NCBI GenBank assembly: GCA_009839925.1
Contig: VXOS01000142.1
Span: 3,039 to 67,038, forward strand
Origin: Chloroflexota bacterium
GTDB lineage: Bacteria > Chloroflexota > Dehalococcoidia > UBA2979
DNA: 64,000 nucleotides
Reading direction: 5' to 3'
Made by a program: the position numbers and the translations under genes. This document shows positions 31,599 to 64,000 of the stretch, piece by piece; the stretch's first letter is position 1; each line of letters begins with the position of its first letter. Below the pieces are notes generated by a model that was given only the letters and a program-made list of their open reading frames with translations, ran no database searches and had not been told where the DNA came from.

Positions 31599-31641
31599 CC
31601 CTGCGCAACCCAGCACCCGGCGCAGCAGTACCCTCTTGACC

Positions 31642-51300: not shown

Positions 51301-51880
51301 ACCAGTCGCGCAGGGCGGCCATCTCAGCGTCGCCGGTGACCCGCACGTTGAGCTCGGTGTTGCCGCTGAAGCCGGCCAGCGTGAGGTTCGAGGAGCCGAC
51401 GACAGCCGAGCCGGGCTCGGCGTGGTCGTCGTACCAGCAGAGGTATGCCTTGGCGTGCAGCGGGCTGCGCCGGTAGGCCCGGACTTCCGCCTTGCCCGAG
51501 GCGACCATGTCCCGGAGCAGGCTCACCGCGTTCTGGGCGTCCTCCGTCTGCGGCAAGAGGGACACCCCGTCAGCGATGCGGTCGACGGAGTCCCGCGCCA
51601 CCGCGGCGCGCTCGCGCCGCTGCACAAGCCCATCGGAGTGCAGCCGCGCCCGCAGCGCGTCCGGCTGCTGTAGCCCCGCAGCGACCGCCTCGATCACCTG
51701 CCGGTCGGCACGGCCGACGAGGATGCGCACCTTGTCCAGCCGCGCCAGTTCTTCGCTGACCGCGCCGAAGCCAGACATGAAGAAGTAGCCGACGGCGATG
51801 TCGGCCCGGGCCGAACTACCGAGCATCTCCTGCAGCCGGGTCAGCAGGTCAGGGTCAGTGAAGGCGTGGAGGATGTTCAA
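48389..51880 (-). CDS. Phospholipase-D-family nuclease domain fused to SNF2/SF2 helicase (candidate ATP-dependent restriction or defence nuclease-helicase)
   Basis: 1,163 aa. N-terminal HKD motif PLHAKAYLC...VVGSSNLTLAG. Helicase motif I DVVGLGKT, motif II VLVDEAHNFRN, motif VI QRFGRVDRIG. Confidence 0.8.
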   Translation of the reverse strand: MNILHAFTDPDLLTRLQEMLGSSARADIAVGYFFMSGFGAVSEELARLDKVRILVGRADRQVIEAVAAGLQQPDALRARLHSDGLVQRRERAAVARDSVDRIADGVSLLPQTEDAQNAVSLLRDMVASGKAEVRAYRRSPLHAKAYLCWYDDHAEPGSAVVGSSNLTLAGFSGNTELNVRVTGDAEMAALRDWFDALWEDSEDISEELQVTLELSWALAKTPPYHVYLKALHELYSGGAGASELPLEPQDGELANFQLDAVRRGLAMIDVHGGCYIGDVVGLGKTFIGAELLRQLQFSYPNDGRPLILCPAGLKPMWESFNERFQLGAEVISHSMIAPSGEAEFDEELGRYIDAAPPERGVVLNQMYPDRGPVLVDEAHNFRNRNQRYAGLEEYLESGDHKVVLLSATPQNLGPLDIYRQLSLFLDDTSHGLPIEPLDLQEYFRNAERWLDYHAAKTNYEAEYEAWERERPTRTPPVPPSQPTVPRADITQVLSPLFIRRRRRDILDLYGDTAMVGGQPVRFPDPVLENVHYRLDRVYARAGEFQEITEALAQHEASRYRASEYLGDDFKTRAEYRGLLRARDRIAGLMKVLLLKRLESSVAAFRSTLETLINSNRNFRESLEAGFVPVGATATRLLAGHEFDADELLEVLQQEEARGHARSAAYPAAHFETERWIADLDADYEVLGGLFERIADIAPDDDDKLRALREFLDQPAVRADKVLIFSEAETTIDYLYEQLNPGGHDPEIAHLSGGNRDNAETIVTRFSPRANLTTGRQVPGLEIRVLLATDIVSEGQNLQDCARVLNYDLHWNPVRLIQRFGRVDRIGTEHDVIDLHSMWPDTAVDEGLELTERLGRRIQSFHDLIGLDNRLLSEAERLNADAMYRIYGEQRMPEADDGLDEVAAHQRAVALLQRIREDNPELWETITSLPDGIRSALAVRAPRPAREDAPDDIYVQDVMPLEGAQAPLMSPANIRAAPPAAFDDPVPGETLVLLGAGEVHGCYAVGSGLEPRPISPAQFVAAAECTPDTPAEALSEDTNERVMAAFEAFRTEFGQRLGRARRPRNTRARRYMSRQLNLAVHAAADDPAEMRRLEVLRRIFNGDLPPPAENALGEIRSLQLEGRVLRIRLEALRERYRLSVPDDSETARPPEPEVIRIVCSDGLA

Positions 51881-51892
51881 TGCTGGACCAGC

Positions 51893-52150
51893 CTAAGGTG
51901 GGTCGTTCCAGTGCGAGGCACGCCAGAGCACGAGTGCATCCACGACGCGCGCGCTGTGCTCCTCGGAGCCCCGATCCACGGCGGCGGCGTGGCGTCCGTC
52001 CCACCAATCATCTCCGACATCGAGCACGATACTCGTGACGGACACCCGCTCGGACTCGACGTCGTCGAAGCCGCTTTCGTACCCGTTCACAACCACGCGC
52101 AGGTCAGGCGGGTAGGTCGCCAGGAGCGTCATCAACTGTCGCACGTTCAT
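51893..52150 (-). CDS. Small hypothetical protein immediately upstream (12-nt gap) of the PLD-SNF2 gene
   Basis: 85-aa ORF with non-GC-artefact composition (MNVRQLMTLLATYPPDLRVVVNGYESGFDD...). Confidence 0.35.
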   Translation of the reverse strand: MNVRQLMTLLATYPPDLRVVVNGYESGFDDVESERVSVTSIVLDVGDDWWDGRHAAAVDRGSEEHSARVVDALVLWRASHWNDPP

Positions 52151-52563
52151 GGCGTCGCCACCTTCCTGCTCGGGGGCGGAACCGTGGGCCTGCCCGACCC
52201 GGGCCCGACCTCAATGGTACGTCGGGATGTCGCTGTATGCCCTGCGGGGTCGCAGCAGTGGTTCTGTTGTGAGCCGCGTAGCGCTCCCTGGCGGCCCGGA
52301 CTCGCTGGTGCTCCATCGATTGAGTCGAGCGACCCGTCTCGGCGAAGACATGCCAGCGGCATTCTGATTAGTTGAGCCGCTCGCCGAATGATCAGGCCTC
52401 GGGAGGGGCTGTAGCGTGGTGGGCGAACGGGCCGGCGCTGCGGCGGCTTGGCGGCCTCCCGCCGGTCAGCCGTGTCTCACACCTCTACAGTCTCGGCAAC
52501 GATGCGCAGCCCCCTAGGCCAATCTAGGAGACAGAATTGCCGACGGCGCAGGAGTCGGCGCTC

Positions 52564-54750
52564 TCACGTGGGCGTACCGGGTCGGCGCTGTCGTTCTCTG
52601 GCGCTGCCGTCGATCCAGTCGTCGAGGGCCATCCGCTGTAGATCGCTGGGGACGAGATCTCCACCCTGAATCGCAGCGTTGAGTCGCCGACCTAGTGTCT
52701 TACCCGATTTGGTTCGGACACTCTCACTCACGGTGCGAGCCAACACGGACGTGTCGCTGACCGCCTCGAGAAAACCCGCTACGGGCCAATCCCGCTGCCC
52801 GAATGCCTCGACGAGTGCTCTTCTCAGGACTTGCCCTCTTCCGACCCCACCGCGACGGATGAGTCTCCGCAATGACCGCGGCGACCTTGGGAAGGCGCGT
52901 TTCAGCTTGTTCCAGTCATCATTACTGAGTCGACCTGCCTCGGCGGCGTCGTGGACGGTCTGGAAGACTTGGGCTACGAGGTGGCTCGCGGACGGGCGCT
53001 CATCGCCGAACCCAACGCCGAGTGCAAATGCACGAACCGAGGTCCCTGCAGCGGTGGAAGGGTCAGTTTGGTTGACGATCTCGCTCCAACGCTTGTTCTC
53101 AAGAGCACGGAGCCGCCGATCCCCCGGAGGGAACTGCTCGAGGACGAGCTTGGCGAGCGCTGTAGATGGCATCTCGCTCCTGCCAAGCCACAAAATGCCT
53201 CGCTTAGGATGTGTGCGCAGGGTTGCTGCCCATTCGGGACGCGCCGGCAGAACCTCCTCCTGATCCACGCGTTCCCCCAGCACGTCGAAGGCAGCTTCGA
53301 TCGCACGGCTCCCCAGTTCGCCAGCGAGGTCACTTAAGGCAACGGACGGCCCCGCAGCGATCACGGCACGCACTATCGCGACGATCTGAGAGTCATCCAA
53401 GTCAGCTCCACGGAGCCAGGCAAGAGCACGGGGCTTAGCGTTGTCCGATCTCCAGAGTGTCGGGTCCGCGACAATCGAAGGCCTGAGATCGAGTGCGCTC
53501 GACGTGACCACATCTGGCCACGACCCAAGGAGCTCAACAAACGTCTCGGTTTCGAGATCTTCGGCCGCGAGCCGCACGAGCGCATTGCGCGCATCCGCTG
53601 TCGCGAACGTTGGGAACTCTCGCAGGAACACCCGCAACTCTGGTTCATCGACTGACATCGCTTGCAGGAACGCGCTGCTCAGGGAGCGCCACCATCCGGG
53701 GAAGGCAGATCCGGCCGCCGAGCGCGACAGGACGGAGAGCCGATCCAGACTTGTGAGCGGTTCAGTGAGGCTCGATCCGGATTCGTCGAGTGCCCAAGAC
53801 TTCAATGCCTCGGCGGCCGCCCGTCGCGGATACCACGCACCGACCCTCTCCAGCAGCGACTGCCAATCAGTGCGATCCGACAGGCCCCGAGCGATCGAGT
53901 GAAGTTCTGCTACACGCCCGAACGACAACCGGTCGGGGGCAAGTCGCGGTCCGAATTGCCACGCGAAGTTCCTCAGCTCGCGCAAGGCGGCGGCATCTGG
54001 TCGAAGACCGGTGGCCCATGTAGCTGAGTGTGAGTGAGCGCGGTGCCCAGCACCCAGGAGGATCACCTCCTGAGCGGCGAGCCGCTCGATCGTCGTTGAG
54101 CGATCTTGAGGGATGACCTGTAGATCGAAGGGGCGGCCAGCGACTTGGCGGAAGGATAGAGCTCCAGTGCAGAACGAGAAGTGCTCGCGGAGCTCAGGCC
54201 ACTGAATGGACCAGACATCAAGCAGGACTTCCTCGTAGTCAGCGGCGGATGCCGCCGGCAGGAGAATCGCGTGATTCGCACTGTCGCTCTGGTACAGAGC
54301 TCCGATGATATCGGCTAGACGGATGTTGTTGTCAGTCGACTGCGAGCGTGTAGGCGGATGTGGAGGCTCAGCGATATCGTGTTCATCGATCTCAAGCGGG
54401 CTCCCGTACTCAATCGCCTGATCGACGGATCGCGGCCTCCGGAACCAATCCGCCAGACTCGCTACATTCGGCAGCGCGATCTGCTCAGGCGTGAGAAGCA
54501 ACGTATGGGTCCACACCGAACCCGGCCTTGCGCCACCGTCCGCCAACCACGTCCGCGCAAACGCGTAGAGGCGTTCGCCCGGCACCGGGTATCCCGATAT
54601 GTAGCTCTCGAACCCGCGAGTCCTAGAGGCCGACCCGGAGAGATCAGACAGCTCGAGGAGGGCTCGCTCCCCCTCCCTGGATAGCCGACGAGAACTCGCC
54701 AATAGGTCGTGCCCGCTGCGGTACCCATGGAGGGCTTGAGCGACTCGCAT
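52564..54750 (-). CDS. Large (729 aa) hypothetical protein, last gene of the tandem-GTPase operon
   Basis: Start MRVAQALHGYRSGHDLL chosen 22 nt after the GTPase stop (alternatives 54789 or 54822). Mostly alpha-helical, Leu/Ala/Arg-rich. No known motif. Confidence 0.5.
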   Translation of the reverse strand: MRVAQALHGYRSGHDLLASSRRLSREGERALLELSDLSGSASRTRGFESYISGYPVPGERLYAFARTWLADGGARPGSVWTHTLLLTPEQIALPNVASLADWFRRPRSVDQAIEYGSPLEIDEHDIAEPPHPPTRSQSTDNNIRLADIIGALYQSDSANHAILLPAASAADYEEVLLDVWSIQWPELREHFSFCTGALSFRQVAGRPFDLQVIPQDRSTTIERLAAQEVILLGAGHRAHSHSATWATGLRPDAAALRELRNFAWQFGPRLAPDRLSFGRVAELHSIARGLSDRTDWQSLLERVGAWYPRRAAAEALKSWALDESGSSLTEPLTSLDRLSVLSRSAAGSAFPGWWRSLSSAFLQAMSVDEPELRVFLREFPTFATADARNALVRLAAEDLETETFVELLGSWPDVVTSSALDLRPSIVADPTLWRSDNAKPRALAWLRGADLDDSQIVAIVRAVIAAGPSVALSDLAGELGSRAIEAAFDVLGERVDQEEVLPARPEWAATLRTHPKRGILWLGRSEMPSTALAKLVLEQFPPGDRRLRALENKRWSEIVNQTDPSTAAGTSVRAFALGVGFGDERPSASHLVAQVFQTVHDAAEAGRLSNDDWNKLKRAFPRSPRSLRRLIRRGGVGRGQVLRRALVEAFGQRDWPVAGFLEAVSDTSVLARTVSESVRTKSGKTLGRRLNAAIQGGDLVPSDLQRMALDDWIDGSARERQRRPGTPT

Positions 54751-54772
54751 CGCCTCGCCACCGCGACTGGTA

Positions 54773-55633
54773 TCACCCCGTATCGACATCGACGACCCAC
54801 CGGAGGGGCTCGGTAATGTCATGCGATTCTGCGTTCGCGTCGCGCGCGACGCGTATCCGCTCAGAAGCGCTGAGGAGGGACTTGAGGCGATCGCTGTCCT
54901 GAGGGAGCTCACCGCCCTGCGCGGAGACTCCGTAAACGCGAACATCAAAGCGCGAGTGGTCGTGGCTTCTCAGGAACTGATCAACCAGTGGGAGCTCCTT
55001 GGCCAACCACTCTGACGGGGTGCCTTGTTCTTCCACCAGATCCCACGCAGACACGATCACGGCGAGCCTGAAGTGTCCCGCCGCAATCTCCGTGCAAAGA
55101 AGCTGGAGTAGGTCGACGAGCTGCACGTCCGTCGGTACTTGCTCAGCGCTCCATTCACTCTCGGTTGGCGCGTCCGCCGCGCCAGATTCCTGAGATGGCA
55201 GTGCTTCCTCGCCCGCGATCTCCATTGCGTCGAGAATCGGCCATGGCTCGCTTGTCTCCTTCGGGTGAACGAAGAGCAACACGCCCGTGGAATCGTGCAC
55301 GTAGTCCCGGAAGCTAGTTGGCCATTGGCGATCCGCAAGGCTCCGCTTGATTGATTCGCCGGCGAGGTCGGGTACGACGATCTCAGTGATGGAGTCCGCG
55401 TCGCTGGGCTTGATTCTGATCGTGGCAATCTGCTCGGCGTCGATACTCGTTCGGTTGGCCACCTCGAACCGTAGCCAGCGACCCGTCAGGTCGTTCAGGT
55501 GGTCCACGGGCGCCTCCAGAACTTCTAGCTCGAGGGCGCCATCAACATCCCGGCTAACGATGACTTGCCACAAGGCTGCGAGGAACGTCGTCTTGCCGGA
55601 TGACGGCAGACCGACGAGCAACGCTTGGTGCAT
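54773..55633 (-). CDS. TRAFAC-class P-loop GTPase (GTPase 2 of tandem pair)
   Basis: 286 aa. G1 GLPSSGKTT, G3 VPDLAGES, degenerate G4 VSAWD. Start shares 1 nt with the upstream stop (TGATG). Confidence 0.7.
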   Translation of the reverse strand: MHQALLVGLPSSGKTTFLAALWQVIVSRDVDGALELEVLEAPVDHLNDLTGRWLRFEVANRTSIDAEQIATIRIKPSDADSITEIVVPDLAGESIKRSLADRQWPTSFRDYVHDSTGVLLFVHPKETSEPWPILDAMEIAGEEALPSQESGAADAPTESEWSAEQVPTDVQLVDLLQLLCTEIAAGHFRLAVIVSAWDLVEEQGTPSEWLAKELPLVDQFLRSHDHSRFDVRVYGVSAQGGELPQDSDRLKSLLSASERIRVARDANAESHDITEPLRWVVDVDTG

Positions 55634-56529
55634 CAGTCGACCCTCTGCGGCGGGCGAGACCGAAAGCGATCGAATTCGCGCACCTCTTGGACCCCGGGGG
55701 GCAGAGAGGCCTCAAGCGGTCGGCGAGCGGAACGAAGCCAGATTCGGAGGACTTCATCCAGGTTCTTCCCGCGGCACAGCTCGGAGCCAGATTCCGGACG
55801 AGCCGCTGTCCAAATGAACTGAAGCTCACCCGTGCGGGCCTCGTGCTTGCGGCGGATCTCCTCTTCGAACCTCTTGACGAAGTCCTCGAGTTGATCAGCG
55901 CCGTCTCCCCTCAACGCTGCGTCCCACTTCGTGTAGATGACCGACTTCACAGCTCTATCGACGCCCGCGTCGAGAATGCTCTGGATCAACATTTCGGTTT
56001 CGTGTTGAGCCTCTTGCCGCAGTGCTTGTGTTCCGAAGCGCTCGCCATCCACAAGGAAGGCGATGTGGTCAGCCCGGTAGAGAAACGGGTGTGCTCTGGC
56101 TGTCTGTACGTCGTCCCGCATCGCTCGGAACTCCTCGCCTGGCCAATCGGCGATCAAGATGTCTCGCGCTGGCGCCACGCCGTCGTGGGCGGCGAGTCGG
56201 AGATGCAAGAACACGTCGCGGTCAGCGAGAGGCGTCCTAGGCGTCTCTGGGGTCGCCCGGCCGGAAGCTATCCGCGCATGATGCGAGCGCTGCTCGAACC
56301 CGTGAAGCGTTCGGGACCACGCGTATTGATGGCCAGCAAACGGGCCCTGAAGGAATTTGCCGTATATCTCGGTAAGCAACGTCGTCTTCCCGACGCCAGC
56401 GAGGCCCACGGGGATAATGACTCGCGTTACTGAGGAACGGGTGGTCTGGTTCGCCTCCTCGATTGTCAGTGCGTCCGCAGACGGTAGCGCGACGAAGCCC
56501 GCCGCAGTGTCGTTCGGAGTCATGGCCAC
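55633..56529 (-). CDS. TRAFAC-class P-loop GTPase (GTPase 1 of tandem pair)
   Basis: 298 aa. G1 GLAGVGKTT, G3 IADWPGEE, G4 YTKWD. Confidence 0.7.
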   Translation of the reverse strand: MAMTPNDTAAGFVALPSADALTIEEANQTTRSSVTRVIIPVGLAGVGKTTLLTEIYGKFLQGPFAGHQYAWSRTLHGFEQRSHHARIASGRATPETPRTPLADRDVFLHLRLAAHDGVAPARDILIADWPGEEFRAMRDDVQTARAHPFLYRADHIAFLVDGERFGTQALRQEAQHETEMLIQSILDAGVDRAVKSVIYTKWDAALRGDGADQLEDFVKRFEEEIRRKHEARTGELQFIWTAARPESGSELCRGKNLDEVLRIWLRSARRPLEASLPPGVQEVREFDRFRSRPPQRVD

Positions 56530-56541
56530 GTCCTGCCCCAG

Positions 56542-57654
56542 CTAGGAGTTGCCAAGGCACCGGGTGAGCAACAGTTCCCGTAGGAGCTGCAGCCCGACTT
56601 CCTCCGGAGCGTCAGCGAAGTCCGCCCCGAGCCCCGTCCGGTCCCGAAGTGCCTGATTCCAATCTCCAGCAGCAGGTGTCTCGCCCATGATCCGCAAGCC
56701 AGCAAGCAGCGGCAAGACGTGGCCTGGGGCCTCTTCAGGTAAGGCGGCCGTCGCCGAGTCTCGCCAGTCCGGGGTGGTTGCCTCCATGGCTTCCGCGACG
56801 GTGAGTTGTATTGGCGCCTCCCCTTCGGCAGACGCCAACGCGTGTCGCAGATATTCGATCGAAGCCGTCGGCGGCACGTCGTGTGTGACAAGGCTTGCCA
56901 GCTCATAGGCTGAAGGGAGGACCAGTCCCTGGGGTGACGCTTGTCCGCGTGGCCTGCTCAACTCTCGTGAGTAGTCGTTGATGACCCACCAGAGAATATC
57001 GTTCTCTTCCGAGAGCGCAGCTAGGCTCTGGACTAGTTGATTGCGAGCAGTGACGTCGGACGCCGCAACGTTCTCGAGGCGCTTCGCGAGGTTCGAAACA
57101 GCGCCGTTCAGGGCTGTCACCGCTGCTGCGTAGTCATTCTGACCGAGCGCCTCCTCGACCTGGTTGGACAGCTTGGTTCCCACACCCATCTGAGCAGGAG
57201 TAAGGGCGGACGTATGCAGTGGTTCCTCGTGGGGCCGGATGCTCACCGCTCGACGGCTGAGATAGTCGTGCGCGAGGGAATCCAGATCGGGTGTCGCTTC
57301 CGGTGCGCGGTCGCCGAATGTGCCGGTAGCCACGCAGAGCGCTGCCGTATCGGTAGCCAGTCCTTCCTCTTCGAACAACGCGACGATCGTCGAGGCCGCG
57401 AGAACCTGCATTTCCGCGTCGTTGTCGATCGTCGAGAACGCTACATCGCCGCTTTGGAGCACCCCAGATATCTCCCGAAGCCACTCCTTCGGAGCCGATG
57501 CAGCCGCAACGGCGCACGCCGAGAGACGGAGCGCCCTCTGTGGCTCCGTGGTCCAGCGAGCCAATGCCTCGACCGCCCCCCATCGGCTCTCGGCGACCTC
57601 GCTCGTCAGACCTACGTTCACACCTCCGAGCCAGTAGGAAAAATGTTGATGCAT
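56542..57654 (-). CDS. Hypothetical 370-aa protein (GTPase-operon component)
   Basis: All-alpha composition. Start ATG shares 1 nt with the upstream stop. Confidence 0.5.
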   Translation of the reverse strand: MHQHFSYWLGGVNVGLTSEVAESRWGAVEALARWTTEPQRALRLSACAVAAASAPKEWLREISGVLQSGDVAFSTIDNDAEMQVLAASTIVALFEEEGLATDTAALCVATGTFGDRAPEATPDLDSLAHDYLSRRAVSIRPHEEPLHTSALTPAQMGVGTKLSNQVEEALGQNDYAAAVTALNGAVSNLAKRLENVAASDVTARNQLVQSLAALSEENDILWWVINDYSRELSRPRGQASPQGLVLPSAYELASLVTHDVPPTASIEYLRHALASAEGEAPIQLTVAEAMEATTPDWRDSATAALPEEAPGHVLPLLAGLRIMGETPAAGDWNQALRDRTGLGADFADAPEEVGLQLLRELLLTRCLGNS

Positions 57655-58262
57655 CAGGTTGCTGCTCCAAGTCCATCCGGCGGTCGGTCGGGGATACCCT
57701 TGCTCTCTTGAGCCGTCTCGCTCCAGAGCTCCGCGAGCCGATTAGCTGCGCGGGCTCGCTCGAAGACCGCACGCGCAAAGCCCTTGCGAGAAAGAGCGTC
57801 GTCTCCCTCATGGAAGAGGTCAAGACGGACTGCGATGGCGCGACGTGTCGTGCTCGGCAGTGCCAGGAAAGCGTAGGCAAGCCTCGTCCGGGGCGGGGCG
57901 GCCTCAAGCTGCTCCTGCAAACTCTGGATCGCATCCTCTAGCGCTGCGCACACGCGCTCTGCCGATTCTGCAACGACGGCAGCAACACTAGGCGAGACGC
58001 TTCGGCCGTGGGCTACGGGGTCCGTCGCTCCGAGCACGTCGCGAATCGCGCGCACAGTCTTCGTGTCAAAGCCACTCTGAGACTTCAGCACGTTGAGGGC
58101 GGACTCGGATGATCCGAGGCGATGCCTATCGGGAGCGAGGTAGCTCGCCAACCACTCGAGGCGTGCCTCAATCGCCCTCCGAGCGAGGACCAGAGCCACC
58201 TCCGGCTGGTCGTCCAGTTCCAGATCTCGGAGTTGGAATGAGGGGAGCTGCGGTCTAACCAT
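57654..58262 (-). CDS. Hypothetical ~202-aa protein (GTPase-operon component)
   Basis: Start MVRPQLPS overlaps the upstream membrane-protein stop by 8 nt. A longer alternative start lies at 58346. Confidence 0.45.
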   Translation of the reverse strand: MVRPQLPSFQLRDLELDDQPEVALVLARRAIEARLEWLASYLAPDRHRLGSSESALNVLKSQSGFDTKTVRAIRDVLGATDPVAHGRSVSPSVAAVVAESAERVCAALEDAIQSLQEQLEAAPPRTRLAYAFLALPSTTRRAIAVRLDLFHEGDDALSRKGFARAVFERARAANRLAELWSETAQESKGIPDRPPDGLGAAT

Positions 58263-58629
58263 CCCCGTCCTCGTCTTCCCACTCCGAGCCCAACGGAGGA
58301 AGCTCGAGGGTCGGCACCGCCTGCGTGATGCCCTGCTCCGCAGCACGACCCGACTCGCGCGTCCCTTCAGTGTTGAATTCGACTACGCCCCCGCCAGGGA
58401 GCAGCAGCCTTTGGGCGAATGGAAGGAGCGGTGCGACAAGCAGTCCCGCGAGCAGCATGAGGGTTTCGGTCGTCGGCTCGACTTCCTTACCGAAGTCGAG
58501 CGAGCGTATGACCACCGACGCGGCGAACAGAGTTACGGCCAACGCCCACACGAAGTAGATCCACCCGAGGAGCTTCCTGAGCCATCTAGGGAATTCGGCT
58601 AGTCTTAGCACGTTTTCCGGCTCTCCCAC
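58255..58629 (-). CDS. Small membrane protein (2 TM), first gene of the GTPase operon
   Basis: 124 aa. LLGWIYFVWALAVTLFAASVVI and LMLLAGLLVAPLLPF hydrophobic helices. Confidence 0.45.
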   Translation of the reverse strand: MGEPENVLRLAEFPRWLRKLLGWIYFVWALAVTLFAASVVIRSLDFGKEVEPTTETLMLLAGLLVAPLLPFAQRLLLPGGGVVEFNTEGTRESGRAAEQGITQAVPTLELPPLGSEWEDEDGDG

Positions 58630-58808
58630 TCGTTCCCGAGTCTACGTGGCACCTGAATGCCCTGGCTAGGCGTACTCACCACGGAGGAGTGATCCAGAGC
58701 TGGCGGAAGCGAGGTCGCCGAGCGAGCAGTGGGGACGACGCTATGGTACCACCCGAGCCATCCGGCGGGGGAGTGCATACGTGCGCGCTTCGTCGCGTAG
58801 ACGAACTC

Positions 58809-59249
58809 CTAGGCCCAACCCCGCCGCAGGATCTGGATGAAGCGCTCCGCCTTGAACGCCGGCTGCTCGGAGGTGCGATCCCAGAAGCAACTGATCTTCC
58901 CCAGGGGCCACCGCACCGCCCGGAGCCAGCGAGCGGCCCGCGACGAGCTCGCAGGTACTCGGCTTGCCGGGTCAGGACAGGTCCTTCCGCGCAGGTCGGG
59001 CCAGAGTTCGGGCGGGAGGATCCTGGCGATGGCGGCCCTGATTCGCTCGTCGAGGTCGCGCCGCTCCTCGTGCGCCCAGGCTTGGGGGCCGCCGTCTGCG
59101 GCGACGACGCCGAGGCCGAGATCGACGAGCAACCGAAGCGTCTTGGCGTAGTCGCTCTCGCGGAGCCGCGCGAACTCGGCTATTGCGGCGTGCTGAGCCT
59201 CCGAGATACGCAGGCCGACGTGGTGCGGGTACCGGGACTGCCGTGTCAT
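58809..59249 (-). CDS. Putative ribbon-helix-helix-like DNA-binding protein upstream of the GTPase operon
   Basis: The N-terminal 45 aa ([36 protein letters not shown]) resemble CopG/RHH. The remainder is low-complexity, so the true C-terminus may be shorter. Confidence 0.35.
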
Positions 59250-59261
59250 TTCGTCAGGCTA

Positions 59262-59471
59262 TCACTGGTTATCGGCAGCGTGCGCTACAAGCTCCGGGCA
59301 CGGCCCTAGCGGATCTCCGCTGGGTGGAGTCGTAGTGGCGGGCCCGGCGTGGTCGGCCAGCAGCTGTTCTCTCTCGGCGCCGAGCGATCGGAGCGTTGCC
59401 AGCTGGCGAGAAGGCCCGTCGAGGGGCTGCCCAGCGGCCCAGGAACTCCCGCGCGCGCGGATCGCCGACAC
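59262..59471 (-). pseudogene. Fragmentary duplicate of the 253-aa gene at 60426-61187
   Basis: Encodes ...[20 protein letters not shown]..., paralogous to ...[21 protein letters not shown]... in the downstream gene. About 95 bp of near-identical DNA (59361-59455 vs 60961-61055). Confidence 0.4.
59361..59455. repeat. ~95-bp direct repeat, copy 1; copy 2 at 60961-61055
   Basis: GCTCTCGGCGCCGAGCGATCGGAG(C/G)GTTGC...AGGAACTCCCGC is about 85% identical between the two loci, 1.6 kb apart. Confidence 0.55.
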
Positions 59472-59586
59472 CTACCACGCGTGGCGGGGCGCGGAGGGCG
59501 CGGGCGGATACCCCGACGAGCCGGGCTTCTGCAAGTCAGCGGAGCCGTAGGGGGCGCTGACCGCAGCTGCGGCCAGTCTCGGCGTG

Positions 59587-60429
59587 TCACGCGGATCCTT
59601 CGAGTCGCGGGGTTTCGAACGACACGCCGAGTTCACACCTGGCCAGGAGGACCTGCTCGCGGACGCTGTCCCACTGTTGGAAGGCCTGCTCGATTGTCAG
59701 ACGGCTCTTCGCTCCGGAGGGACTTTGACCGCTCGCCGGATTGATGTAGCCGGGGAGGGAAACGGTTGGCCTGGCGAAGCGCGCATCCGGGCGTGCAGCA
59801 TCACGGCAGGGGACGTACGAGTACATCCCCTTCATTGGCTTGTCGAAGGTGGCGCCCCGGTAGAGTGTGAACCGATACTCGCCGCTCCCGTCGGTAGTGA
59901 GAGACTCGATGGTGCAGACGCGAAACGCCTCGTCGGTCTCGGGAGGGTGGTGCGGGGCGTAACATTCGGCCTCCTCGACGACGAATACCGTGTCGAGAAC
60001 GAACTCTCCGCGAAGCTTCGAGCCGAAGAGGATCACTGATCCCGGCGTCAGCTCCTGCAGGGCGGACGGGTTCTTGTAGCTGGTCAGCTGCTTGCAGTTG
60101 CTGTATCGGAAGGCCTCGCCGAAGACCCATGGATCCGTGTTCAGGCGGTAGTTCGATGTCGGCGGGCGCTCCCAGACCGGAACCTGGAGTGCCCGTGGAA
60201 GCTGCCCCTCGCGCGGCCACCGCTCAACGACCCAGGAGGGTGCCTCCCACTCTCCCCAGAAGACGAGGGGCTTGCCCCTTGCCTGCTCCTGCGAGTCCAA
60301 GGAGCGCCCGGCGCTGAGGAGGAACTTCCGCCCGTGATCGCCCGTGTTCCACGGCATCCGGTCGCCATGGCGAAGGATGCGCTCGCCGCCCGGATGCGGG
60401 AACTGCACCACGAAGACCGAGGCGCTCAT
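59587..60429 (-). CDS. Hypothetical 280-aa protein, ATGA-coupled to the upstream 253-aa gene
   Basis: Start MSASVFVVQF. No recognisable motif. Confidence 0.5.
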   Translation of the reverse strand: MSASVFVVQFPHPGGERILRHGDRMPWNTGDHGRKFLLSAGRSLDSQEQARGKPLVFWGEWEAPSWVVERWPREGQLPRALQVPVWERPPTSNYRLNTDPWVFGEAFRYSNCKQLTSYKNPSALQELTPGSVILFGSKLRGEFVLDTVFVVEEAECYAPHHPPETDEAFRVCTIESLTTDGSGEYRFTLYRGATFDKPMKGMYSYVPCRDAARPDARFARPTVSLPGYINPASGQSPSGAKSRLTIEQAFQQWDSVREQVLLARCELGVSFETPRLEGSA

Positions 60430-61187
60430 GAGCTGCTGCTTCTCTGCTGTCGTGCCACGCTCGCGACCCACGCAGCGAGGCGGCTCTTGAACTCATTGGT
60501 CACACCGCGACTGCCCTGCAGGTTCGTCGACCAGCCCACGTACTGCACCCCTTCGCCGTCCCCCATGTAGAGCGAGCACGTCGTGTGGCCCATCGGCATC
60601 GTTCCGCAGTCGCTCAGCTCCACCAGCCCGACGGACTTGACGTGGTCCAGCACCTGGCGGCCGTTAAGCAAGACAAGGGTGGTCTTGCCGAAGGTGAACA
60701 GCGCCCGGAGGTGTGGCAGCCCCTCGGCCAGGAGCTGCTCCCTCGTGCGCTCGGCCAGCTCGCCCCAGATTGGGTCCGTCGCCCATTGAACAAGATCGAG
60801 GTGGCAGGCGCTCCCGGTGTAGTAGCTTGCGCCGACGCTGGCGCGGAGCACCATGTCGAGCGAGTTGAACCACCGGCCGTAGGGGTTCCTGTCTGCGTCG
60901 AAATAGCGCGCACAGTCCTCGACGACCTCCAGCACCTGCGCGTCGGTGAGTGATTCGAGACTCTCGGCGCCGAGCGATCGGAGGGTTGCGAGCCGGCGAG
61001 ACGACCCGTCGAGGAGCTTCCCGCGGCCTAGGAACTCCCGCAAGCTCGGATTGATGCCCAGCGTGGCCACGGTGGCGACGAACGGATCCCCGAACGCGAC
61101 CACAGGCGTCGATTCCGGTACGACCTCCGCGACCGGTGCCTCTCGGCGGACCATGTCGACGAGGTACCTCGGGATAGGTGGTGTCAT
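60426..61187 (-). CDS. Hypothetical 253-aa protein, possibly uracil-DNA-glycosylase-superfamily fold
   Basis: VVAFGDPFVATVATLGINPSLREF resembles the MUG/TDG GINPG motif. A weak second motif lies near WSTNLQGSRG. Low confidence on the fold. Confidence 0.5.
   Translation of the reverse strand: MTPPIPRYLVDMVRREAPVAEVVPESTPVVAFGDPFVATVATLGINPSLREFLGRGKLLDGSSRRLATLRSLGAESLESLTDAQVLEVVEDCARYFDADRNPYGRWFNSLDMVLRASVGASYYTGSACHLDLVQWATDPIWGELAERTREQLLAEGLPHLRALFTFGKTTLVLLNGRQVLDHVKSVGLVELSDCGTMPMGHTTCSLYMGDGEGVQYVGWSTNLQGSRGVTNEFKSRLAAWVASVARQQRSSSS
60961..61055. repeat. ~95-bp direct repeat, copy 2 (inside the 253-aa gene)
   Basis: See copy 1. Confidence 0.55.
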
Positions 61188-61278
61188 CGTCAGCGCCTTG
61201 CTAGGCGGTCACTACCCGCGATGCGGTGGTCCATCTCCGCTGGCAGCATGATGACGCTGAAGACGTCAAAGAGGTGGC

Positions 61279-63978
61279 TCAGGGCAAGCTGTGCTCGACA
61301 GCCGCCGTCTCCTCTGTTGTCAGGCCGTACAGGTCGTAAACGAGCCCGTCTAGCGTGCGCTCCCACTCGTTCACGTCGGATCCTGCATCCGACGCCTTTG
61401 CGTCGATGATGCGGTCCACCAACTCCACGAACGGCCGCTGCTCCTCTACGCTAATCCGCGGCACAGGGATTGGGGCGACCGTGAGGCGCTCCCACTGGAT
61501 GAGCCCCATACCTGTGGTGAATGCGGTGCGTTCCATGAACCACTTGACAAGCGTACTGTTGAGAATCGCGGCAAGGTACTTCAGGGAAGGACCCGTAAGA
61601 ACATACCCTTTCTGGTTGCAGAACTCGTCGCTGTCCGAGTACGCGAACCGCCCCTCCGGTGACATAGTCGCCCAGAAGAGTTTCGGATTCTCGAAGGCCC
61701 GATATGCACCCGATCTGTAGTAGTCAACCTGAAGTTGCCACCAGTCATACGGTACGCGCCCCGTCCGAGGATTCGCGCCACCTCGGCGGCTCGCGAGTCG
61801 CTCTTTGTGAGTGAGTAGGTGCCTGCGTACTGCCGGATAGTCGTGCTCAGCCACCCCACTGTGACTGTAAATCAGCCACTTGTCCGCCCACTCCGCCTGC
61901 CAGCGACGGATGTCGCGACCCCGCAGAATCGGCTTGATGATCTCCGCCGACTTAGGATCCTCGACGACGAGGGCGTCTCGAGCGGCACTGTCGATGATGA
62001 ATGCCTCGTTGTACCCGGTCTTGATGCCATAGTTGAGCTTGACGCCGTCCCACTGCGCGAGCGGCGTCCCACGTGCACTCATCTTCGCCATCACCTCGTG
62101 CTCGGTGAGCGAGAGGATGCTCCACGGTGCCTCGGGTTCCGTGCGAATGAGGCCCCAGTCCTCCTCGGGTGGCGGGAAGGCGACTCCGGGCACTCGATCC
62201 ATGTCGACTGCGGGGAAAGGAGTAGACTCGCCTCCGGTGCGAAGCAGCAACACACCGCTGTCGACGATCGCGCTTTCGAAGACGTCCTTGCCGAGGTCGA
62301 GCCAGCGCAGCGGCTTGTGACTTCCGGCGAAGAAGCGGCGCAGGCGCTTACCGTAGGCCGCGCGCATCCAGCTGTTGGAGGTGATGTAGGCCAGTACCCC
62401 ACCGTCGGGCTTGAGCAGATCGCAACCGCGCTCGTAGAACAACTGGTAGATGTCACCGCTCCGAACGAAGGTCGTGTAGCCGGCGTCGCGATAGAGGTTG
62501 GCGAGCCGCCCGCCGTCGCGCTGCAACTGGTGGTACGGCGGGTTGGCGAGCACAATGTCAAAGCCGCCACCACGTGCGTCGCGGGCCTCGAACACCTCCG
62601 GGAAGGCCGAACGCCACTCGACGCCGCCGCCGGCGTCCGCCGCTCCCGAGCCGCCGTAGCGCTCCCGCAACCTGCGGTTGATTTCCGCGATCTGTGCGCG
62701 CAGAGCCGCCTTGGCGGGTCCGGCGAACTCGTGCATGTAGCGCGCCTTGAGCTCCTGCAGCTCCACTGTCTGGTCCCCGAAAGTCCCTTGGACGCCGCCC
62801 TCCCCTCCGTGCGCCGCCAGCAGGCTGTCCCCTGTCAGGATCCCTAGATCGAGGTTTGGTAGCGGCGGAACGGGCGGGGGGCCGTCGTACTCGATTGCGA
62901 GCGACAGCCACAGCCGCAACTGCGCGATGTGGACAGCAAACGGATCGATGTCCGCGCCGCGCAGGTTGCGCTCGATGATCTCGAGCTTGAGCGTATGGAG
63001 CGACTTGTCGTCTGCGCCGACGTTGAACAGCACGGTCTGGAGTTCGACCAACTCCTGCATCATCCCGAGCAGGTAGGCGCCGGAGCCGCAGGCCGGGTCG
63101 ACGACCGTAACCTCGCTCAGCGCGTCCGCAACCTTGCGCGCCGCCGGGACGTCTATGTCGTCGGTACGGTGCTTGTCCACGAATGCGGCGATCGCGTCGG
63201 GTGTTAGTCCGGTGTCGCGCGCATCGAGGTAGCCCTTGAGCGCCTCGCGGCACATGAACGACACGACCTGCCGCGGCGTGTAGTAGGAGCCGGACTGCTG
63301 GCGGCCCGTCACCAGTTCCTCGAAGACCTTCCCAAGCATCTCGGGATCGACGGCCACCTCGATGTCGAAGGGAGTCGACTCCATCACGGTGAAGTTGAAG
63401 CGCTCGAACAGGCTGGTTAGCACAGCCTCTACGGCGTCGTCGGGCACCGTGACGCCCTCGCGATTGTCGAGGTCGCCCTGCTCGAACAGACCGCCGTTGA
63501 GGAATTGGACCTCGCCGATCAGCGGGTTCGTTCCGTCCGTCAAGTCGCGGGAGTCGGGGTTGTTGAGCCCCACAAAGAACAGGGTCCTGAGCCGACTGAC
63601 GTGGAAGTTGTCACCCTCGCGGTGGTTCTGCCGGTAGTCGTTCCACAGCGCCTTGAGGTAGTCCGTGTCACCGCGGAACTTGAGCCAGCCCTTGCGCTGC
63701 AGGAAGTAGACGAACATCAGCCGGTTGAACAGCGTCTGGACGAACAGCCGACGCTCCTCGTCCTCGCCCTCGGCAAACCCCGTCACGCTCTGCTCGACCT
63801 GCTCGAAGACCCGCTTGTACTCCTGGAAGAACCGCTTGGTGACGGGCTCGACATCGAAGGCCTCGGTGAGTGCAACGCGGACGCTCCGGGTGTCCCGTGG
63901 ACCCCTGTAGATCTTCGAGAGCTGTTCGACGGGAGTTCGATTGTGCTCGCCACGCTCGAACACGAGGCGCCGCAGCAC
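61279..63978 (-). CDS. N6-adenine DNA methyltransferase, PglX/Eco57I-like (type IIG/BREX-type gamma-class). The N-terminus may extend beyond the window end.
   Basis: 899+ aa. N-terminal helical FxxxFNRLMFVYFLQRKGWL region. SAM motif VVDPACGSGAYL. Catalytic LANPPYHQL. The large C-terminal region serves as target-recognition domain. No stop occurs before the window edge. Confidence 0.85.
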   Translation of the reverse strand: MLRRLVFERGEHNRTPVEQLSKIYRGPRDTRSVRVALTEAFDVEPVTKRFFQEYKRVFEQVEQSVTGFAEGEDEERRLFVQTLFNRLMFVYFLQRKGWLKFRGDTDYLKALWNDYRQNHREGDNFHVSRLRTLFFVGLNNPDSRDLTDGTNPLIGEVQFLNGGLFEQGDLDNREGVTVPDDAVEAVLTSLFERFNFTVMESTPFDIEVAVDPEMLGKVFEELVTGRQQSGSYYTPRQVVSFMCREALKGYLDARDTGLTPDAIAAFVDKHRTDDIDVPAARKVADALSEVTVVDPACGSGAYLLGMMQELVELQTVLFNVGADDKSLHTLKLEIIERNLRGADIDPFAVHIAQLRLWLSLAIEYDGPPPVPPLPNLDLGILTGDSLLAAHGGEGGVQGTFGDQTVELQELKARYMHEFAGPAKAALRAQIAEINRRLRERYGGSGAADAGGGVEWRSAFPEVFEARDARGGGFDIVLANPPYHQLQRDGGRLANLYRDAGYTTFVRSGDIYQLFYERGCDLLKPDGGVLAYITSNSWMRAAYGKRLRRFFAGSHKPLRWLDLGKDVFESAIVDSGVLLLRTGGESTPFPAVDMDRVPGVAFPPPEEDWGLIRTEPEAPWSILSLTEHEVMAKMSARGTPLAQWDGVKLNYGIKTGYNEAFIIDSAARDALVVEDPKSAEIIKPILRGRDIRRWQAEWADKWLIYSHSGVAEHDYPAVRRHLLTHKERLASRRGGANPRTGRVPYDWWQLQVDYYRSGAYRAFENPKLFWATMSPEGRFAYSDSDEFCNQKGYVLTGPSLKYLAAILNSTLVKWFMERTAFTTGMGLIQWERLTVAPIPVPRISVEEQRPFVELVDRIIDAKASDAGSDVNEWERTLDGLVYDLYGLTTEETAAVEHSLP

Positions 63979-64000
63979 GGGCCGTGTACCAGTGAGGTCG

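What the first reader, a model, noticed from the sequence alone, without database searches (positions are those of the whole stretch)
59587..63978. PglX/Eco57I-like adenine MTase followed by two unknown co-transcribed genes (one possibly UDG-fold), not a canonical BREX layout
The MTase has the PglX-type N-terminal helical region, the SAM-binding motif and NPPY. It is followed on the same strand by a 253-aa protein carrying a GINPS motif reminiscent of MUG/TDG-family glycosylases, and by an ATGA-coupled 280-aa unknown.

No pglZ, brxL or brxC lies downstream, where BREX type 1 would place them. This therefore looks like either a type IIG/IIL-like enzyme with novel accessory genes, or a non-canonical methylation-based system. 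A glycosylase-fold partner of an MTase would be unusual.
Basis: partly seen in the sequence, partly recalled or inferred. Interest (0 to 1): 0.55.

Follow-up and report, generated by a model that had tools for sequence, protein, structure and literature searches.

The report
Brig3/BapA-like glycosylase cassette inside RM operon
The two "unknown" genes behind the methyltransferase are very probably relatives of the recently described Brig3/BapA anti-phage pair, and they sit as a passenger cassette inside a methyltransferase-helicase restriction operon rather than serving the methyltransferase.

Summary
A truncated N6-adenine methyltransferase with DPACGSG and NPPY motifs is followed by a 253-aa protein carrying GINPS and an ATGA-coupled 280-aa protein. 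No BREX genes are present.

The 253-aa protein (A) does have a UDG fold. Its invariant residues reproduce, with identical spacing, the residues shown to matter in Brig3, a 5-hydroxymethylcytosine DNA glycosylase described in a February 2026 preprint. The 280-aa protein (B) matches Brig3's overlapping partner BapA in layout, ASCH-like beta-barrel fold and an invariant Asp. BapA removes glucose from glucosyl-5hmC.

The A+B pair travels on its own. It occurs next to a type I RM system, next to helicases, and among metabolic genes, and A and B also occur fused. The methyltransferase accompanies it only in near-identical islands.

The methyltransferase's conserved partner is the HKD(PLD)-SNF2 helicase at 48389-51880. 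These two genes are adjacent in at least 14 plasmids from bacteria and archaea. A close relative keeps a duplicated helicase 5' end directly after the methyltransferase stop codon, which marks where the cassette was inserted.

Verdict: a new member of known kinds, nested one in the other.

The parts
61279..64000 (-). C-terminal 906 residues of a 1,237-aa gamma-class N6-adenine DNA methyltransferase with its own target-recognition domain. Motif I DPACGSG lies at 63079-63099 and NPPY at 62533-62544. The gene is cut by the window end.
   Evidence: Pfam finds Eco57I, MmeI_Mtase and TaqI_C. PADLOC type IIG scores 454 bits against 73 bits for PglX. The protein is below all BREX PglX cut-offs. The full length comes from contig L002, which is 100% identical to the window over 13,575 nt. 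The N-terminal 370 residues are not covered by the type IIG profile and carry only a weak XRE-like HTH match.
60426..61187 (-). Gene A: 253-aa UDG-fold protein, Brig3-like, a putative 5-hydroxymethylcytosine DNA glycosylase. Key residues are N46-P47-S48-x-x-E51, Y103-x-x-W106-F107, H129-x-D131 and N222.
   Evidence: AlphaFold2 model pLDDT 95.7. The top 50 Foldseek PDB matches are all UDG superfamily, the best being 4zby at E 7e-5. The Brig3 residues N50/P51/S52/E55, Y97/W100/F101, H125/D127 and N225 come from the preprint. The motif set is present in 168 of 199 family members. There is no Pfam, NCBIfam, PADLOC or PDB-sequence match.
59587..60429 (-). Gene B: 280-aa beta-rich protein, BapA-like, a putative glucosyl-5hmC deglucosylase. 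It is ATGA-coupled to A and has an invariant D99 in the motif NTDPW.
   Evidence: AlphaFold2 model pLDDT 94.6. The best Foldseek matches are weak and are to the ASCH/PUA-like barrels YqfB and ZmASCH (5y6b, 5guq), with E 0.36 and probability 0.66. The preprint describes BapA as two beta-barrels, ASCH-like against ZmASCH 5GUQ, with an essential D101 and an ORF overlapping brig3. Natural fusions occur in the orders A-B, A-CTD-B and B-A.
59371..59462 (.). A 92-nt degenerate, frameshifted copy of part of gene A (60961-61051). It is a relic of a second Brig3-like gene.
   Evidence: Direct repeats D1 and D3 are 84-89% identical. Supporting evidence comes from blastn and from the sequence itself.
52245..59557 (-). 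A second embedded block, absent from relative L004. It holds a 146-aa ORF, a 118/124-aa ORF and a GAAD/GASH/DO-GTPase2/DO-GTPase1/GAP1-N1 conflict system.
   Evidence: In blastn, L004 11630 joins to 11671 where the window holds 7.3 kb. L003 carries a different 5.7-kb insert at the same junction.
51893..52150 (-). An 85-aa gene immediately upstream of the helicase. It is conserved (87% identity) in L004. Its function is unknown.
   Evidence: No Pfam match at E<=1.
48389..51880 (-). A 1,163-aa HKD(PLD)-SNF2 helicase-nuclease, the inferred restriction partner of the methyltransferase. It carries LHAKAY...GSSNLT at 51380-51460, GLGKT at 51026-51040 and DEAH at 50744-50755.
   Evidence: Pfam finds PLDc_2, RE_NgoFVII, SNF2-rel_dom and Helicase_C. 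The motifs are shown. Homologous helicases lie next to homologous methyltransferases in at least 14 plasmids. A duplicate of the helicase 5' end lies after the methyltransferase stop in L004.

Best explanation
The flagged stretch is a composite of two independent defence modules, one nested inside the other.

(1) The methyltransferase is the modification and sequence-recognition half of an ATP-dependent, type I/III-like restriction-modification pair. It is a 1,237-aa enzyme of Eco57I/MmeI type with a TaqI_C target-recognition domain. Its other half is the HKD(PLD)-SNF2 helicase-nuclease at 48389-51880. By inference, the methyltransferase marks host DNA on adenine at an asymmetric site and directs the helicase-nuclease to unmarked DNA. 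In the ancestor of this locus the two genes were translationally coupled, with the methyltransferase stop and the helicase start sharing TTGA.

(2) Genes A and B are relatives of Brig3 and BapA. By inference from the published system, B removes glucose from glucosyl-5-hydroxymethylcytosine in phage DNA. A then flips out the exposed 5hmC, or a similar 5-substituted pyrimidine, and excises it, leaving abasic sites that block phage replication. This attacks hypermodified phages, which are the ones that escape methylation-based restriction.

The A+B cassette was inserted between the methyltransferase and helicase genes. In this genome a GTPase-based conflict system was later inserted behind it.

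What is shown: the folds, the motifs, the gene linkage and the insertion scars. What is inferred: the enzymatic activities and the substrate.
For: A = Brig3-like:
- UDG fold.
- The family's invariant residues N46-P47-S48-x-x-E51, Y103-x-x-W106-F107, H129-x-D131 and N222 match Brig3's N50-P51-S52-x-x-E55, Y97-x-x-W100-F101, H125-x-D127 and N225. The spacing within each motif is identical, the order is the same, and positions are shifted by no more than 6 residues.
- N50A, E55A, W100A, D127A/N and N225A all abolish Brig3 defence.
- The topology also matches: six strands, a beta4-beta5 hairpin near residue 200, and the Asn loop between the last strand and the last helix.

B = BapA-like:
- ATGA overlap with A.
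- ASCH-like best Foldseek matches, including ZmASCH, the same comparator the preprint uses.
- Invariant D99 against the essential D101 of BapA.
- A and B occur fused in both orders.

The cassette is autonomous:
- B follows A in 21 of 80 genome loci from many phyla, and none of these has a methyltransferase homologue.
- The pair lies next to a DUF4011 helicase, next to a type I RM system, and among metabolic genes.

Methyltransferase-helicase pair:
- At least 10 of the 15 best plasmid relatives of the methyltransferase have a homologous helicase adjacent on the same strand. They come from Cyanobacteria, Deinococcus, Lactococcus and haloarchaea.
- The helicases are 28-31% identical over about 900 aa, with E from 1e-76 to 1e-112.
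- In L004 a truncated copy of the helicase N-terminus starts at a TTGA overlap with the methyltransferase stop.
- The methyltransferase recognition domain has diverged to 12-37% identity between the window and L004, while the helicase stays 91% identical.
- The Deinococcus pair likewise has a DUF262 (GmrSD-like) gene embedded between its two genes.
- Embedding of defence genes within multi-gene systems is a described phenomenon.
Against: - The Brig3 and BapA sequences (GenBank PX942695) could not be obtained, so no alignment or E-value supports membership.
- Brig3's essential R197 has no conserved Arg counterpart in family A.
- The spacing from the intercalating Asn to the following Gly differs (6 residues against 4).
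- The ASCH similarity of B is weak (E 0.36).
- Some solo A homologues in Dehalococcoidia lie among housekeeping genes. The family may therefore include repair enzymes, and the substrate here is not known.
- The methyltransferase and the helicase are 9.4 kb apart in this genome, and nothing shows that they still cooperate.
- No DUF499 ATPase or DUF3780 protein is present, unlike the characterised MANTIS system, so the mode of activation may differ.
- The N-terminal 370 residues of the methyltransferase are uncharacterised.
Confidence: 0.75

Rival explanations
1. A and B are dedicated accessory subunits of the methyltransferase. Together they would form a new methylation-based system in which a glycosylase-fold protein reads or acts on the methyl mark.
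For: The three genes lie on the same strand. The gap between the methyltransferase and A is only 91 nt, and no terminator is predicted. The same order is seen in L003 and L004.
Against: L003 and L004 are close relatives (A is 87% identical), so shared gene order carries little weight. No methyltransferase homologue lies near A in any of the 80 genome loci or in L005 and L086-L093. The helicase 5' duplicate after the methyltransferase stop shows that A+B arrived by insertion. A's invariant residues match those of a 5hmC glycosylase, not a reader of methyladenine.
Confidence: 0.06
2. The methyltransferase is a self-contained type IIG restriction-modification enzyme with a cryptic nuclease domain in residues 200-370. 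Its adjacency to the helicase would then be a coincidence of two separate systems.
For: The best profile matches are PADLOC type IIG models. Residues 213-370 are conserved with the Calothrix and Haloferax homologues. A PD...E-x-P string there resembles a degenerate PD-(D/E)xK motif; this is my own reading of the sequence.
Against: The type IIG profile match starts at profile position 194, so the part of the profile I take to be the nuclease is not matched. Pfam finds no nuclease domain. The candidate motif lacks the Lys. The same conserved region occurs in homologues that are themselves paired with the helicase.
Confidence: 0.1
3. A, with B, is a housekeeping base-excision repair enzyme rather than a defence module. 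It might, for example, remove oxidised or deaminated 5-substituted pyrimidines.
For: Solo A homologues in several Dehalococcoidia genomes sit between FabI-like, transaldolase, dipeptidase and glutamine synthetase genes. One A+B pair lies among metabolic genes. Brig3 keeps residual activity on uracil.
Against: Here the pair lies in a low-GC island packed with defence genes. The family has a patchy distribution across more than 10 phyla. The A+B pair is often next to RM systems, helicases, integrases or CBASS. The Glu that reads the hydroxymethyl group in Brig3 is invariant in the family.
Confidence: 0.08
4. The locus is a divergent BREX or DISARM system.
For: There are weak PglX and DrmMI matches for the methyltransferase and weak DrmD matches for the helicase.
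Against: All scores are far below the curated cut-offs: PglX 80 against 400, DrmD 152 against 610. No PglZ, BrxC, BrxL, DrmA or DrmB is found in the window or its extension.
Confidence: 0.01

Closest known systems
Brig3-BapA (Mejia-Pitta et al., bioRxiv 10.64898/2026.02.25.707755)
   Same: Both are two overlapping genes in a defence island. Gene 1 is a single-domain UDG-superfamily protein of about 250 aa carrying N-P-S-x-x-E, Y-x-x-W-F, H-x-D and a C-terminal intercalating Asn. Gene 2 is a protein of about 280 aa with two beta-barrels, ASCH-like, with an essential or invariant Asp near residue 100.
   Different: Brig3's essential R197 is not conserved. The Asn-loop spacing differs by two residues. 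The source here is a high-GC genome, whereas the origin of the published cosmid is unknown. Most relatives of A that are paired with B carry an extra C-terminal domain of about 135 aa, which is not reported for Brig3.
Brig1 (Hossain et al., Nature 2024, PMC11078745)
   Same: Both have a UDG fold with the same best structural match (S. tokodaii family 4 UDG, 4ZBY). Both have a G-[IL]-N-P motif, an aromatic Y/W pair, and an acidic residue at the end of the second core strand.
   Different: There is no significant sequence similarity (hhalign probability 0.3%). Brig1 acts alone on alpha-glucosyl-5hmC. It has a larger pocket and no BapA-like partner.
MANTIS / Gao_RL / type-2 BREX-related system (bioRxiv 10.64898/2026.09.23.753747; PMC12839542)
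   Same: An N6-adenine methyltransferase with its own recognition domain is paired with an N-terminal HKD(PLD) nuclease fused to a SNF2/SF2 helicase.
   Different: There is no DUF499 AAA+ ATPase (MtsA) and no DUF3780 small protein (MtsB), both of which MANTIS requires. The system here has two genes, plus a small 85-aa gene and an upstream HTH protein.
Type IIG enzymes (MmeI, Eco57I, BpuSI)
   Same: The methyltransferase and TaqI_C-type recognition-domain architecture is shared, and the best profile matches are to this group.
   Different: No recognisable N-terminal PD-(D/E)xK nuclease domain is present. An XRE-like HTH occupies the N-terminus instead, and the nuclease is supplied in trans by the helicase protein.
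Defence genes embedded within multi-gene systems (Payne et al., bioRxiv 10.1101/2024.01.29.577857)
   Same: An enzyme that targets modified DNA is nested between the core genes of a methylation-based system. In the Deinococcus relative a DUF262 (GmrSD-like) gene occupies the same position.
   Different: The host operon here is a methyltransferase plus HKD-SNF2 helicase pair, and the cargo is a glycosylase pair. The insertion scars are still visible: a duplicated helicase 5' end and a relic of a second glycosylase gene.

Membership tests
Brig3 (UDG-superfamily 5hmC DNA glycosylase) | UDG alpha/beta fold, single domain of about 250 aa with six strands | tested here: met
   pLDDT 95.7, six strands. 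All 50 best PDB matches are UDG-superfamily enzymes, with probability 1.0 for the top ones.
Brig3 (UDG-superfamily 5hmC DNA glycosylase) | N50-P51-S52 with E55 five residues after the Asn. The Asn positions the water or metal, and the Glu reads the hydroxymethyl group. | tested here: met
   N46-P47-S48-x-x-E51 are all invariant in 61 sequences and present in 195 of 199 family members.
Brig3 (UDG-superfamily 5hmC DNA glycosylase) | Aromatic cage Y97, W100, F101, H125 and the catalytic-pocket residue D127 | tested here: met
   Y103 (at least 90% conserved), W106, F107, H129 and D131 (all invariant), with the same internal spacing.
Brig3 (UDG-superfamily 5hmC DNA glycosylase) | Intercalating Asn (N225) in the loop before the last helix, and the essential R197 in the beta4-beta5 hairpin | tested here: inconclusive
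   N222 is invariant and lies in the loop between the last strand and the last helix. However, the Asn-to-Gly spacing is 6 rather than 4, and the hairpin (G200/H201) has no conserved Arg.
Brig3 (UDG-superfamily 5hmC DNA glycosylase) | Significant sequence similarity to Brig3 itself, and 5hmC excision activity | not testable with these tools
   The sequence (GenBank PX942695) is absent from the held text and supplements. No PDB chain matched the family profile.
BapA (Brig-associated deglucosylase) | ORF overlapping the 3' end of the glycosylase gene | tested here: met
   ATGA overlap at 60426-60429. The preprint states that ORF1 and ORF2 overlap.
BapA (Brig-associated deglucosylase) | Two beta-barrels, ASCH-like | tested here: inconclusive
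   The model is beta-rich with pLDDT 94.6. The best matches are the ASCH/PUA-like barrels YqfB and ZmASCH, but they are weak (E 0.36-0.7, TM 0.4-0.5 over 92-157 columns).
BapA (Brig-associated deglucosylase) | Essential Asp (D101) in a long linker | tested here: met
   D99 is invariant in NTDPW and lies within the coil spanning residues 87-122.
BREX PglX | Score above the NCBIfam BREX methyltransferase cut-offs, with PglZ and BrxC neighbours | tested here: not met
   Best score 80 bits against a cut-off of 400. No PglZ, BrxC or BrxL found.
Type IIG restriction-modification enzyme | Gamma-class N6A methyltransferase plus recognition domain in one chain | tested here: met
   Eco57I, MmeI_Mtase, TaqI_C, and the DPACGSG and NPPY motifs. 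PADLOC type IIG scores 454 bits.
Type IIG restriction-modification enzyme | Nuclease domain in the same polypeptide | tested here: not met
   The profile match begins at profile position 194 and protein residue 371. Pfam finds only a weak HTH_31 match in residues 1-370. The fold of this region was not modelled.
MANTIS / type-2 BREX-related system | N6A methyltransferase plus HKD-SF2 helicase effector | tested here: met
   Conserved adjacency in at least 14 plasmids and an ancestral TTGA coupling. The HKD, GLGKT and DEAH motifs are intact.
MANTIS / type-2 BREX-related system | DUF499 AAA+ ATPase (MtsA) and DUF3780 protein (MtsB) | tested here: not met
   Neither appears in the Pfam lists of L002-L004 or in my scans of the window ORFs, the 85-aa gene, the 214-aa gene or the 229-aa gene.
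DISARM | DrmA and DrmB (DUF1998) core genes, and DrmD above cut-off | tested here: not met
   DrmD scores 152 bits against a cut-off of 610. No DrmA or DrmB found.

The most novel reading that the evidence does not exclude
The glycosylase pair may not be a mere passenger. This clade of Brig3/BapA relatives could have a substrate other than 5hmC or glucosyl-5hmC, for example another hypermodified pyrimidine of actinophages. Many members of the clade carry an uncharacterised 135-aa C-terminal domain or are fused into one chain. The pair could also cooperate mechanistically with the surrounding methyltransferase / HKD-SNF2 helicase system, for example if abasic sites or stripped bases give the helicase-nuclease access to DNA that hypermodification would otherwise protect. 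Under this reading, the junction between the methyltransferase and helicase genes is a dedicated recombination hot spot for swapping such backup modules.
Probability: 0.2. Interest if true: 0.6.

Novelty: new member of a known kind. Interest (0 to 1): 0.35.

Why it matters
Brig3/BapA was described in 2026 from a single soil cosmid, with no survey of relatives. Pfam, NCBIfam and PADLOC have no model for either protein, so genome annotation leaves them as hypothetical proteins.

This locus and the searches around it add four points:
- The glycosylase belongs to a large family: 2,170 representative clusters, in more than ten phyla.
- A subclade of that family is stably paired with, or fused to, the BapA-like protein.
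- The pair moves as a cassette.
- It can be nested inside a methyltransferase-helicase restriction operon, where it would cover the hypermodified phages that escape methylation-based restriction.

The locus also gives a clean example, with insertion scars still visible, of how defence operons acquire embedded cargo. None of this changes the known picture of how such systems work.

Tried and rejected
- Sequence libraries for A and B (Pfam, NCBIfam, PADLOC, PDB sequences) gave nothing, even at E<=10.
- Brig1 as a direct relative of A: the Brig1 sequence was recovered from the paper's supplement. Similarity is not significant (hhalign probability 0.3%; BLASTP E 0.17).
- Obtaining the Brig3 and BapA sequences: they are not in the preprint text or in the PMC supplement. 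An exact-position residue match against all collected family members found no protein with Brig3 numbering.
Its reported taxonomic spread (mostly Pseudomonadota and Bacillota) differs from that of family A, but this was not tested further.
- Foldseek of B against viral structures gave only noise.
- The C-terminal domain of long A proteins, and other fusion partners of A, gave no Pfam match apart from weak LRV/HEAT repeat hits in one 830-aa fusion (P0376). No copy of the C-terminal domain is present in the window.
- Promoter and terminator scans between the genes found nothing in either direction. They are uninformative in this high-GC DNA.
- Phage genomes contain no copy of A. Plasmids hold only one distant copy of A and one of B.
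- The 85-aa gene as a conserved third component: it shows no similarity to the small genes in the Deinococcus or Calothrix loci.
- BREX and DISARM were rejected on cut-offs and missing core genes.

Full report
**Observation**

On the minus strand the window holds three consecutive genes.
- An ORF ends at 61279 and runs off the window at 64000. No in-frame stop precedes the listed GTG at 63978.
- A 253-aa ORF lies at 60426-61187. I call it A.
- A 280-aa ORF lies at 59587-60429. I call it B. Its ATG overlaps the stop codon of A as ATGA.

The first ORF carries DPACGSG and NPPY and matches Pfam Eco57I, MmeI_Mtase and TaqI_C. A has GINPS at residues 44-48.

Both small ORFs are real genes. Searches found 944 and 745 homologous clusters respectively. 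Alignments of members that are 48-87% identical show 36 and 43 invariant columns, many of them polar.

**Extending the contig**

A metagenome contig (L002) is 100% identical to window 50426-64000 and continues 7.2 kb further.

It shows that the methyltransferase is 1,237 aa long. It is preceded by an overlapping 229-aa protein with a sigma-70 region 4-like HTH. Before that, on the other strand, lie a tyrosine recombinase and two large unknown proteins. No BREX gene is present there or anywhere in the window from 31.5 to 64 kb.

**The methyltransferase is not PglX**

It scores 454 and 400 bits on two PADLOC type IIG profiles against 73 bits on the best PglX profile. It scores 80 bits against a cut-off of 400 on the best NCBIfam BREX model.

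It is also not a demonstrable type IIG enzyme. The type IIG profile match starts at profile position 194 and protein residue 371, so the part of the profile I take to be the nuclease domain is not matched. Pfam finds only a weak XRE-type HTH in the first 370 residues.

**Protein A**

None of Pfam, NCBIfam, PADLOC or a profile search of PDB sequences finds anything for A.

An AlphaFold2 model built on 61 sequences is confident (pLDDT 95.7). All 50 best Foldseek matches in the PDB are UDG-superfamily enzymes: family 4 UDG, TDG, UdgX and SMUG1. The best is S. tokodaii UDG 4zby at E 7e-5.

**Protein B**

B likewise has no sequence-library match. Its model is confident (pLDDT 94.6).

Its only structural matches are weak ones to ASCH/PUA-like barrels, namely E. 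coli YqfB and Zymomonas ZmASCH (E 0.36-0.7). The viral structure library gave only noise.

**Literature link**

A full-text search for glycosylase-based phage defence led to a February 2026 preprint on Brig3 and BapA.

Brig3 is a UDG-superfamily protein from a soil cosmid that excises 5-hydroxymethylcytosine. Its gene overlaps a second ORF, bapA, described as 'of unknown structure and function'. The BapA protein is modelled as two beta-barrels resembling ZmASCH (5GUQ). It removes glucose from glucosyl-5hmC and depends on D101.

The crystal structures and mutants in the preprint name these Brig3 residues: N50, P51, S52, E55, Y97, W100, F101, H125, D127 and N225.

Family A's invariant or near-invariant residues are N46-P47-S48-x-x-E51, Y103-x-x-W106-F107, H129-x-D131 and N222. 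These are the same residues, with the same spacing within each motif, in the same order, and shifted by no more than six positions.

The described topology also fits the model of A:
- six strands;
- an essential residue in the beta4-beta5 hairpin near position 197;
- the Asn loop next to the last helix.

The full motif string is present in 168 of 199 collected family members. B has an invariant D99 in a long coil, which compares with D101 of BapA.

Brig1, whose sequence I recovered from its supplement and checked against the published residue numbers, shows no significant similarity to A. However, the structural equivalences given in the preprint (Brig1 E147 = Brig3 D127; Brig1 W122 = Brig3 W100) are consistent with the motif alignment.

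I could not obtain the Brig3 and BapA sequences themselves. Membership therefore rests on motifs, fold, topology and operon layout.

Two details do not fit. Brig3's essential R197 has no conserved Arg counterpart in family A, and the Asn-to-Gly spacing differs by two residues.

**Is the pair tied to the methyltransferase?**

No. Evidence from the distribution of A and B:
- A scan of one genome per species found 122 relatives of A. Of the 80 loci kept, 21 have B directly downstream and none has a homologue of the methyltransferase.
- The methyltransferase accompanies the pair only in L001-L004, which are the same island or close relatives of it (A 87-100% identical).
- Elsewhere the pair lies next to a DUF4011 helicase, a type I RM system or metabolic genes.
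- A gene with a truncated B-like ORF lies beside CBASS, EVE and integrase genes.
- An exhaustive profile search found 2,170 representative clusters at E<=1e-3.
- Among these are natural fusions in the orders A-CTD-B, A-B and B-A. These tie A to B, not to a methyltransferase.
- More distant A homologues (35-48% identical) are mostly solo genes. In several Dehalococcoidia genomes they lie among housekeeping genes. This keeps open the possibility that some family members have a repair role.

**The methyltransferase's real partner**

Evidence from plasmid relatives:
- At least 10 of the 15 best plasmid relatives of the methyltransferase have a large helicase gene adjacent on the same strand. Examples are Calothrix, three Nostoc plasmids, Microcystis, Planktothrix, Deinococcus, Haloferax, Halorussus and Lactococcus. 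Thermus, Natrinema, Lactiplantibacillus and Prevotella appear further down the list.
- These helicases are full-length homologues of the window's 1,163-aa protein at 48389-51880 (28-31% identity over about 900 aa, E 1e-76 to 1e-112).
- The window's helicase has an intact HKD motif, GLGKT and DEAH.

Evidence from the close relatives of this locus:
- In relative L004, only A, B and an 85-aa gene separate the methyltransferase from this helicase.
- Directly after the L004 methyltransferase stop codon, sharing TTGA with it, lies a truncated duplicate of the helicase's first ~37 codons. The ancestral operon was therefore methyltransferase-helicase, translationally coupled, and the cassette was inserted into it.
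- Compared with L004, the window carries a further 7.3 kb between B and the 85-aa gene (59557-52245). This block holds a GAAD/GASH/double-GTPase/GAP1 conflict system.
- L003 carries a different 5.7-kb insert at the same junction.
- The window block begins with a 92-nt frameshifted relic of a second A-like gene at 59371-59462.
- The methyltransferase's recognition domain has been replaced between the window and L004 (12-37% identity), whereas the rest of the protein is 64-89% identical and the helicase 91%. This is the pattern expected if the methyltransferase is the specificity subunit and the helicase a constant effector.

**Comparison with known systems**

The methyltransferase plus HKD-SNF2 helicase pair resembles the MtsC and MtsD components of MANTIS (Gao_RL, type-2 BREX-related). 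It lacks the DUF499 ATPase and the DUF3780 protein that MANTIS needs (absence shown). It is best described as a two-gene, type I/III-like ATP-dependent RM module.

Nesting of extra defence genes inside multi-gene systems has been described. In the Deinococcus relative, a DUF262 (GmrSD-like) gene sits in the same position. I take that gene to be another enzyme aimed at modified DNA.

**Mechanism**

Shown: the folds, the conserved residues, the gene linkage, the fusions and the insertion scars.

Inferred:
- The methyltransferase marks host DNA and guides the helicase-nuclease to unmarked DNA.
- B strips sugars from hypermodified cytosines.
- A excises the exposed base, leaving abasic sites that stop phage replication.
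- The nested arrangement gives one locus activity against both unmodified and hypermodified phage DNA.

**Verdict**

The finding is real and was worth checking, but it resolves into new members of two known kinds, one nested in the other. It is not a new methylation-based system. Interest is moderate to low (0.35). The value lies in the family-wide view of Brig3/BapA, which current annotation libraries miss, and in the clear insertion history of this locus.

Noticed in passing
window 59371-59462 (compare 60961-61051): A 92-nt degenerate, frameshifted copy of part of the Brig3-like gene A lies just downstream of B. It sits at the edge of the 7.3-kb block that is absent from relative L004. It looks like a relic of a second glycosylase gene and may mark how cassettes are exchanged.
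   Followed up: partly
L004 and L003 9750-9904 (equivalent to window 51725-51880): A truncated duplicate of the helicase gene's 5' end sits directly after the methyltransferase stop codon, sharing TTGA with it. It is an insertion scar showing that the two genes were once translationally coupled.
   Followed up: yes
window 52564-58346 (-): A complete GTPase-associated conflict system is present: GAAD, GASH, DO-GTPase2, DO-GTPase1 and GAP1-N1. It is preceded by two small ORFs (58809-59249 and 58255-58629). It is inserted at the same junction where L003 carries an N6_N4 methyltransferase and a faint DndB-like hit.
   Followed up: partly
window 42430-46806 (+) and 46803-48263 (+): A 1,458-aa NACHT/Avs-like STAND protein has an N-terminal region that matches PADLOC endonuclease-effector models. 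It is followed by an overlapping 486-aa ORF with no family match.
   Followed up: no
window 32809-36660 (+) and 31537-32730 (+): A 1,283-aa TPR protein carries a PIN-TPR-GreABC-type PIN domain and lies next to a protein with a CoiA_N domain. GC content drops from about 0.71 to about 0.65 here, which probably marks the inner border of the defence island.
   Followed up: no
L002 1-4937 (7 kb beyond window position 64000): A tyrosine recombinase and two large proteins (618 and 701 aa) without family matches lie here. They are conserved in L003 and L004. One of the large proteins has a very weak integrase SAM-like hit. This may be the mobility module of the island.
   Followed up: partly
proteins P0024, P0030, P0068 and others; loci L007-L012, L014-L017, L020, L025, L026, L029, L030, L040, L048, L072, L075, L077: Most relatives of A that are paired with B carry an extra C-terminal domain of about 135 aa with no Pfam match. 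The window's A lacks it. Single-chain fusions A-CTD-B, A-B and B-A also exist (P0248, P0256, P0263, P0275, P0326, P0293).
   Followed up: partly
L028, L031, L049, L055; L038, L046, L047: Solo homologues of A in Dehalococcoidia genomes sit in conserved neighbourhoods of housekeeping genes: a FabI-like reductase, transaldolase, M19 dipeptidase, glutamine synthetase, CoA-transferase and enoyl-CoA hydratase. This hints that part of the family may be ordinary repair enzymes.
   Followed up: partly
window 61279-62200 compared with L004 8200-9753: The methyltransferase's recognition domain is only 12-37% identical between the window and its close relative, whereas the rest of the locus is 64-91% identical. 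This looks like a swap of the specificity domain.
   Followed up: partly
L097 (Deinococcus radiophilus pRadio5) 9923-12833: A DUF262 (GmrSD-like) gene and two hypothetical genes are embedded between the homologous methyltransferase and helicase genes. This is the same position that the glycosylase pair occupies in the window.
   Followed up: no
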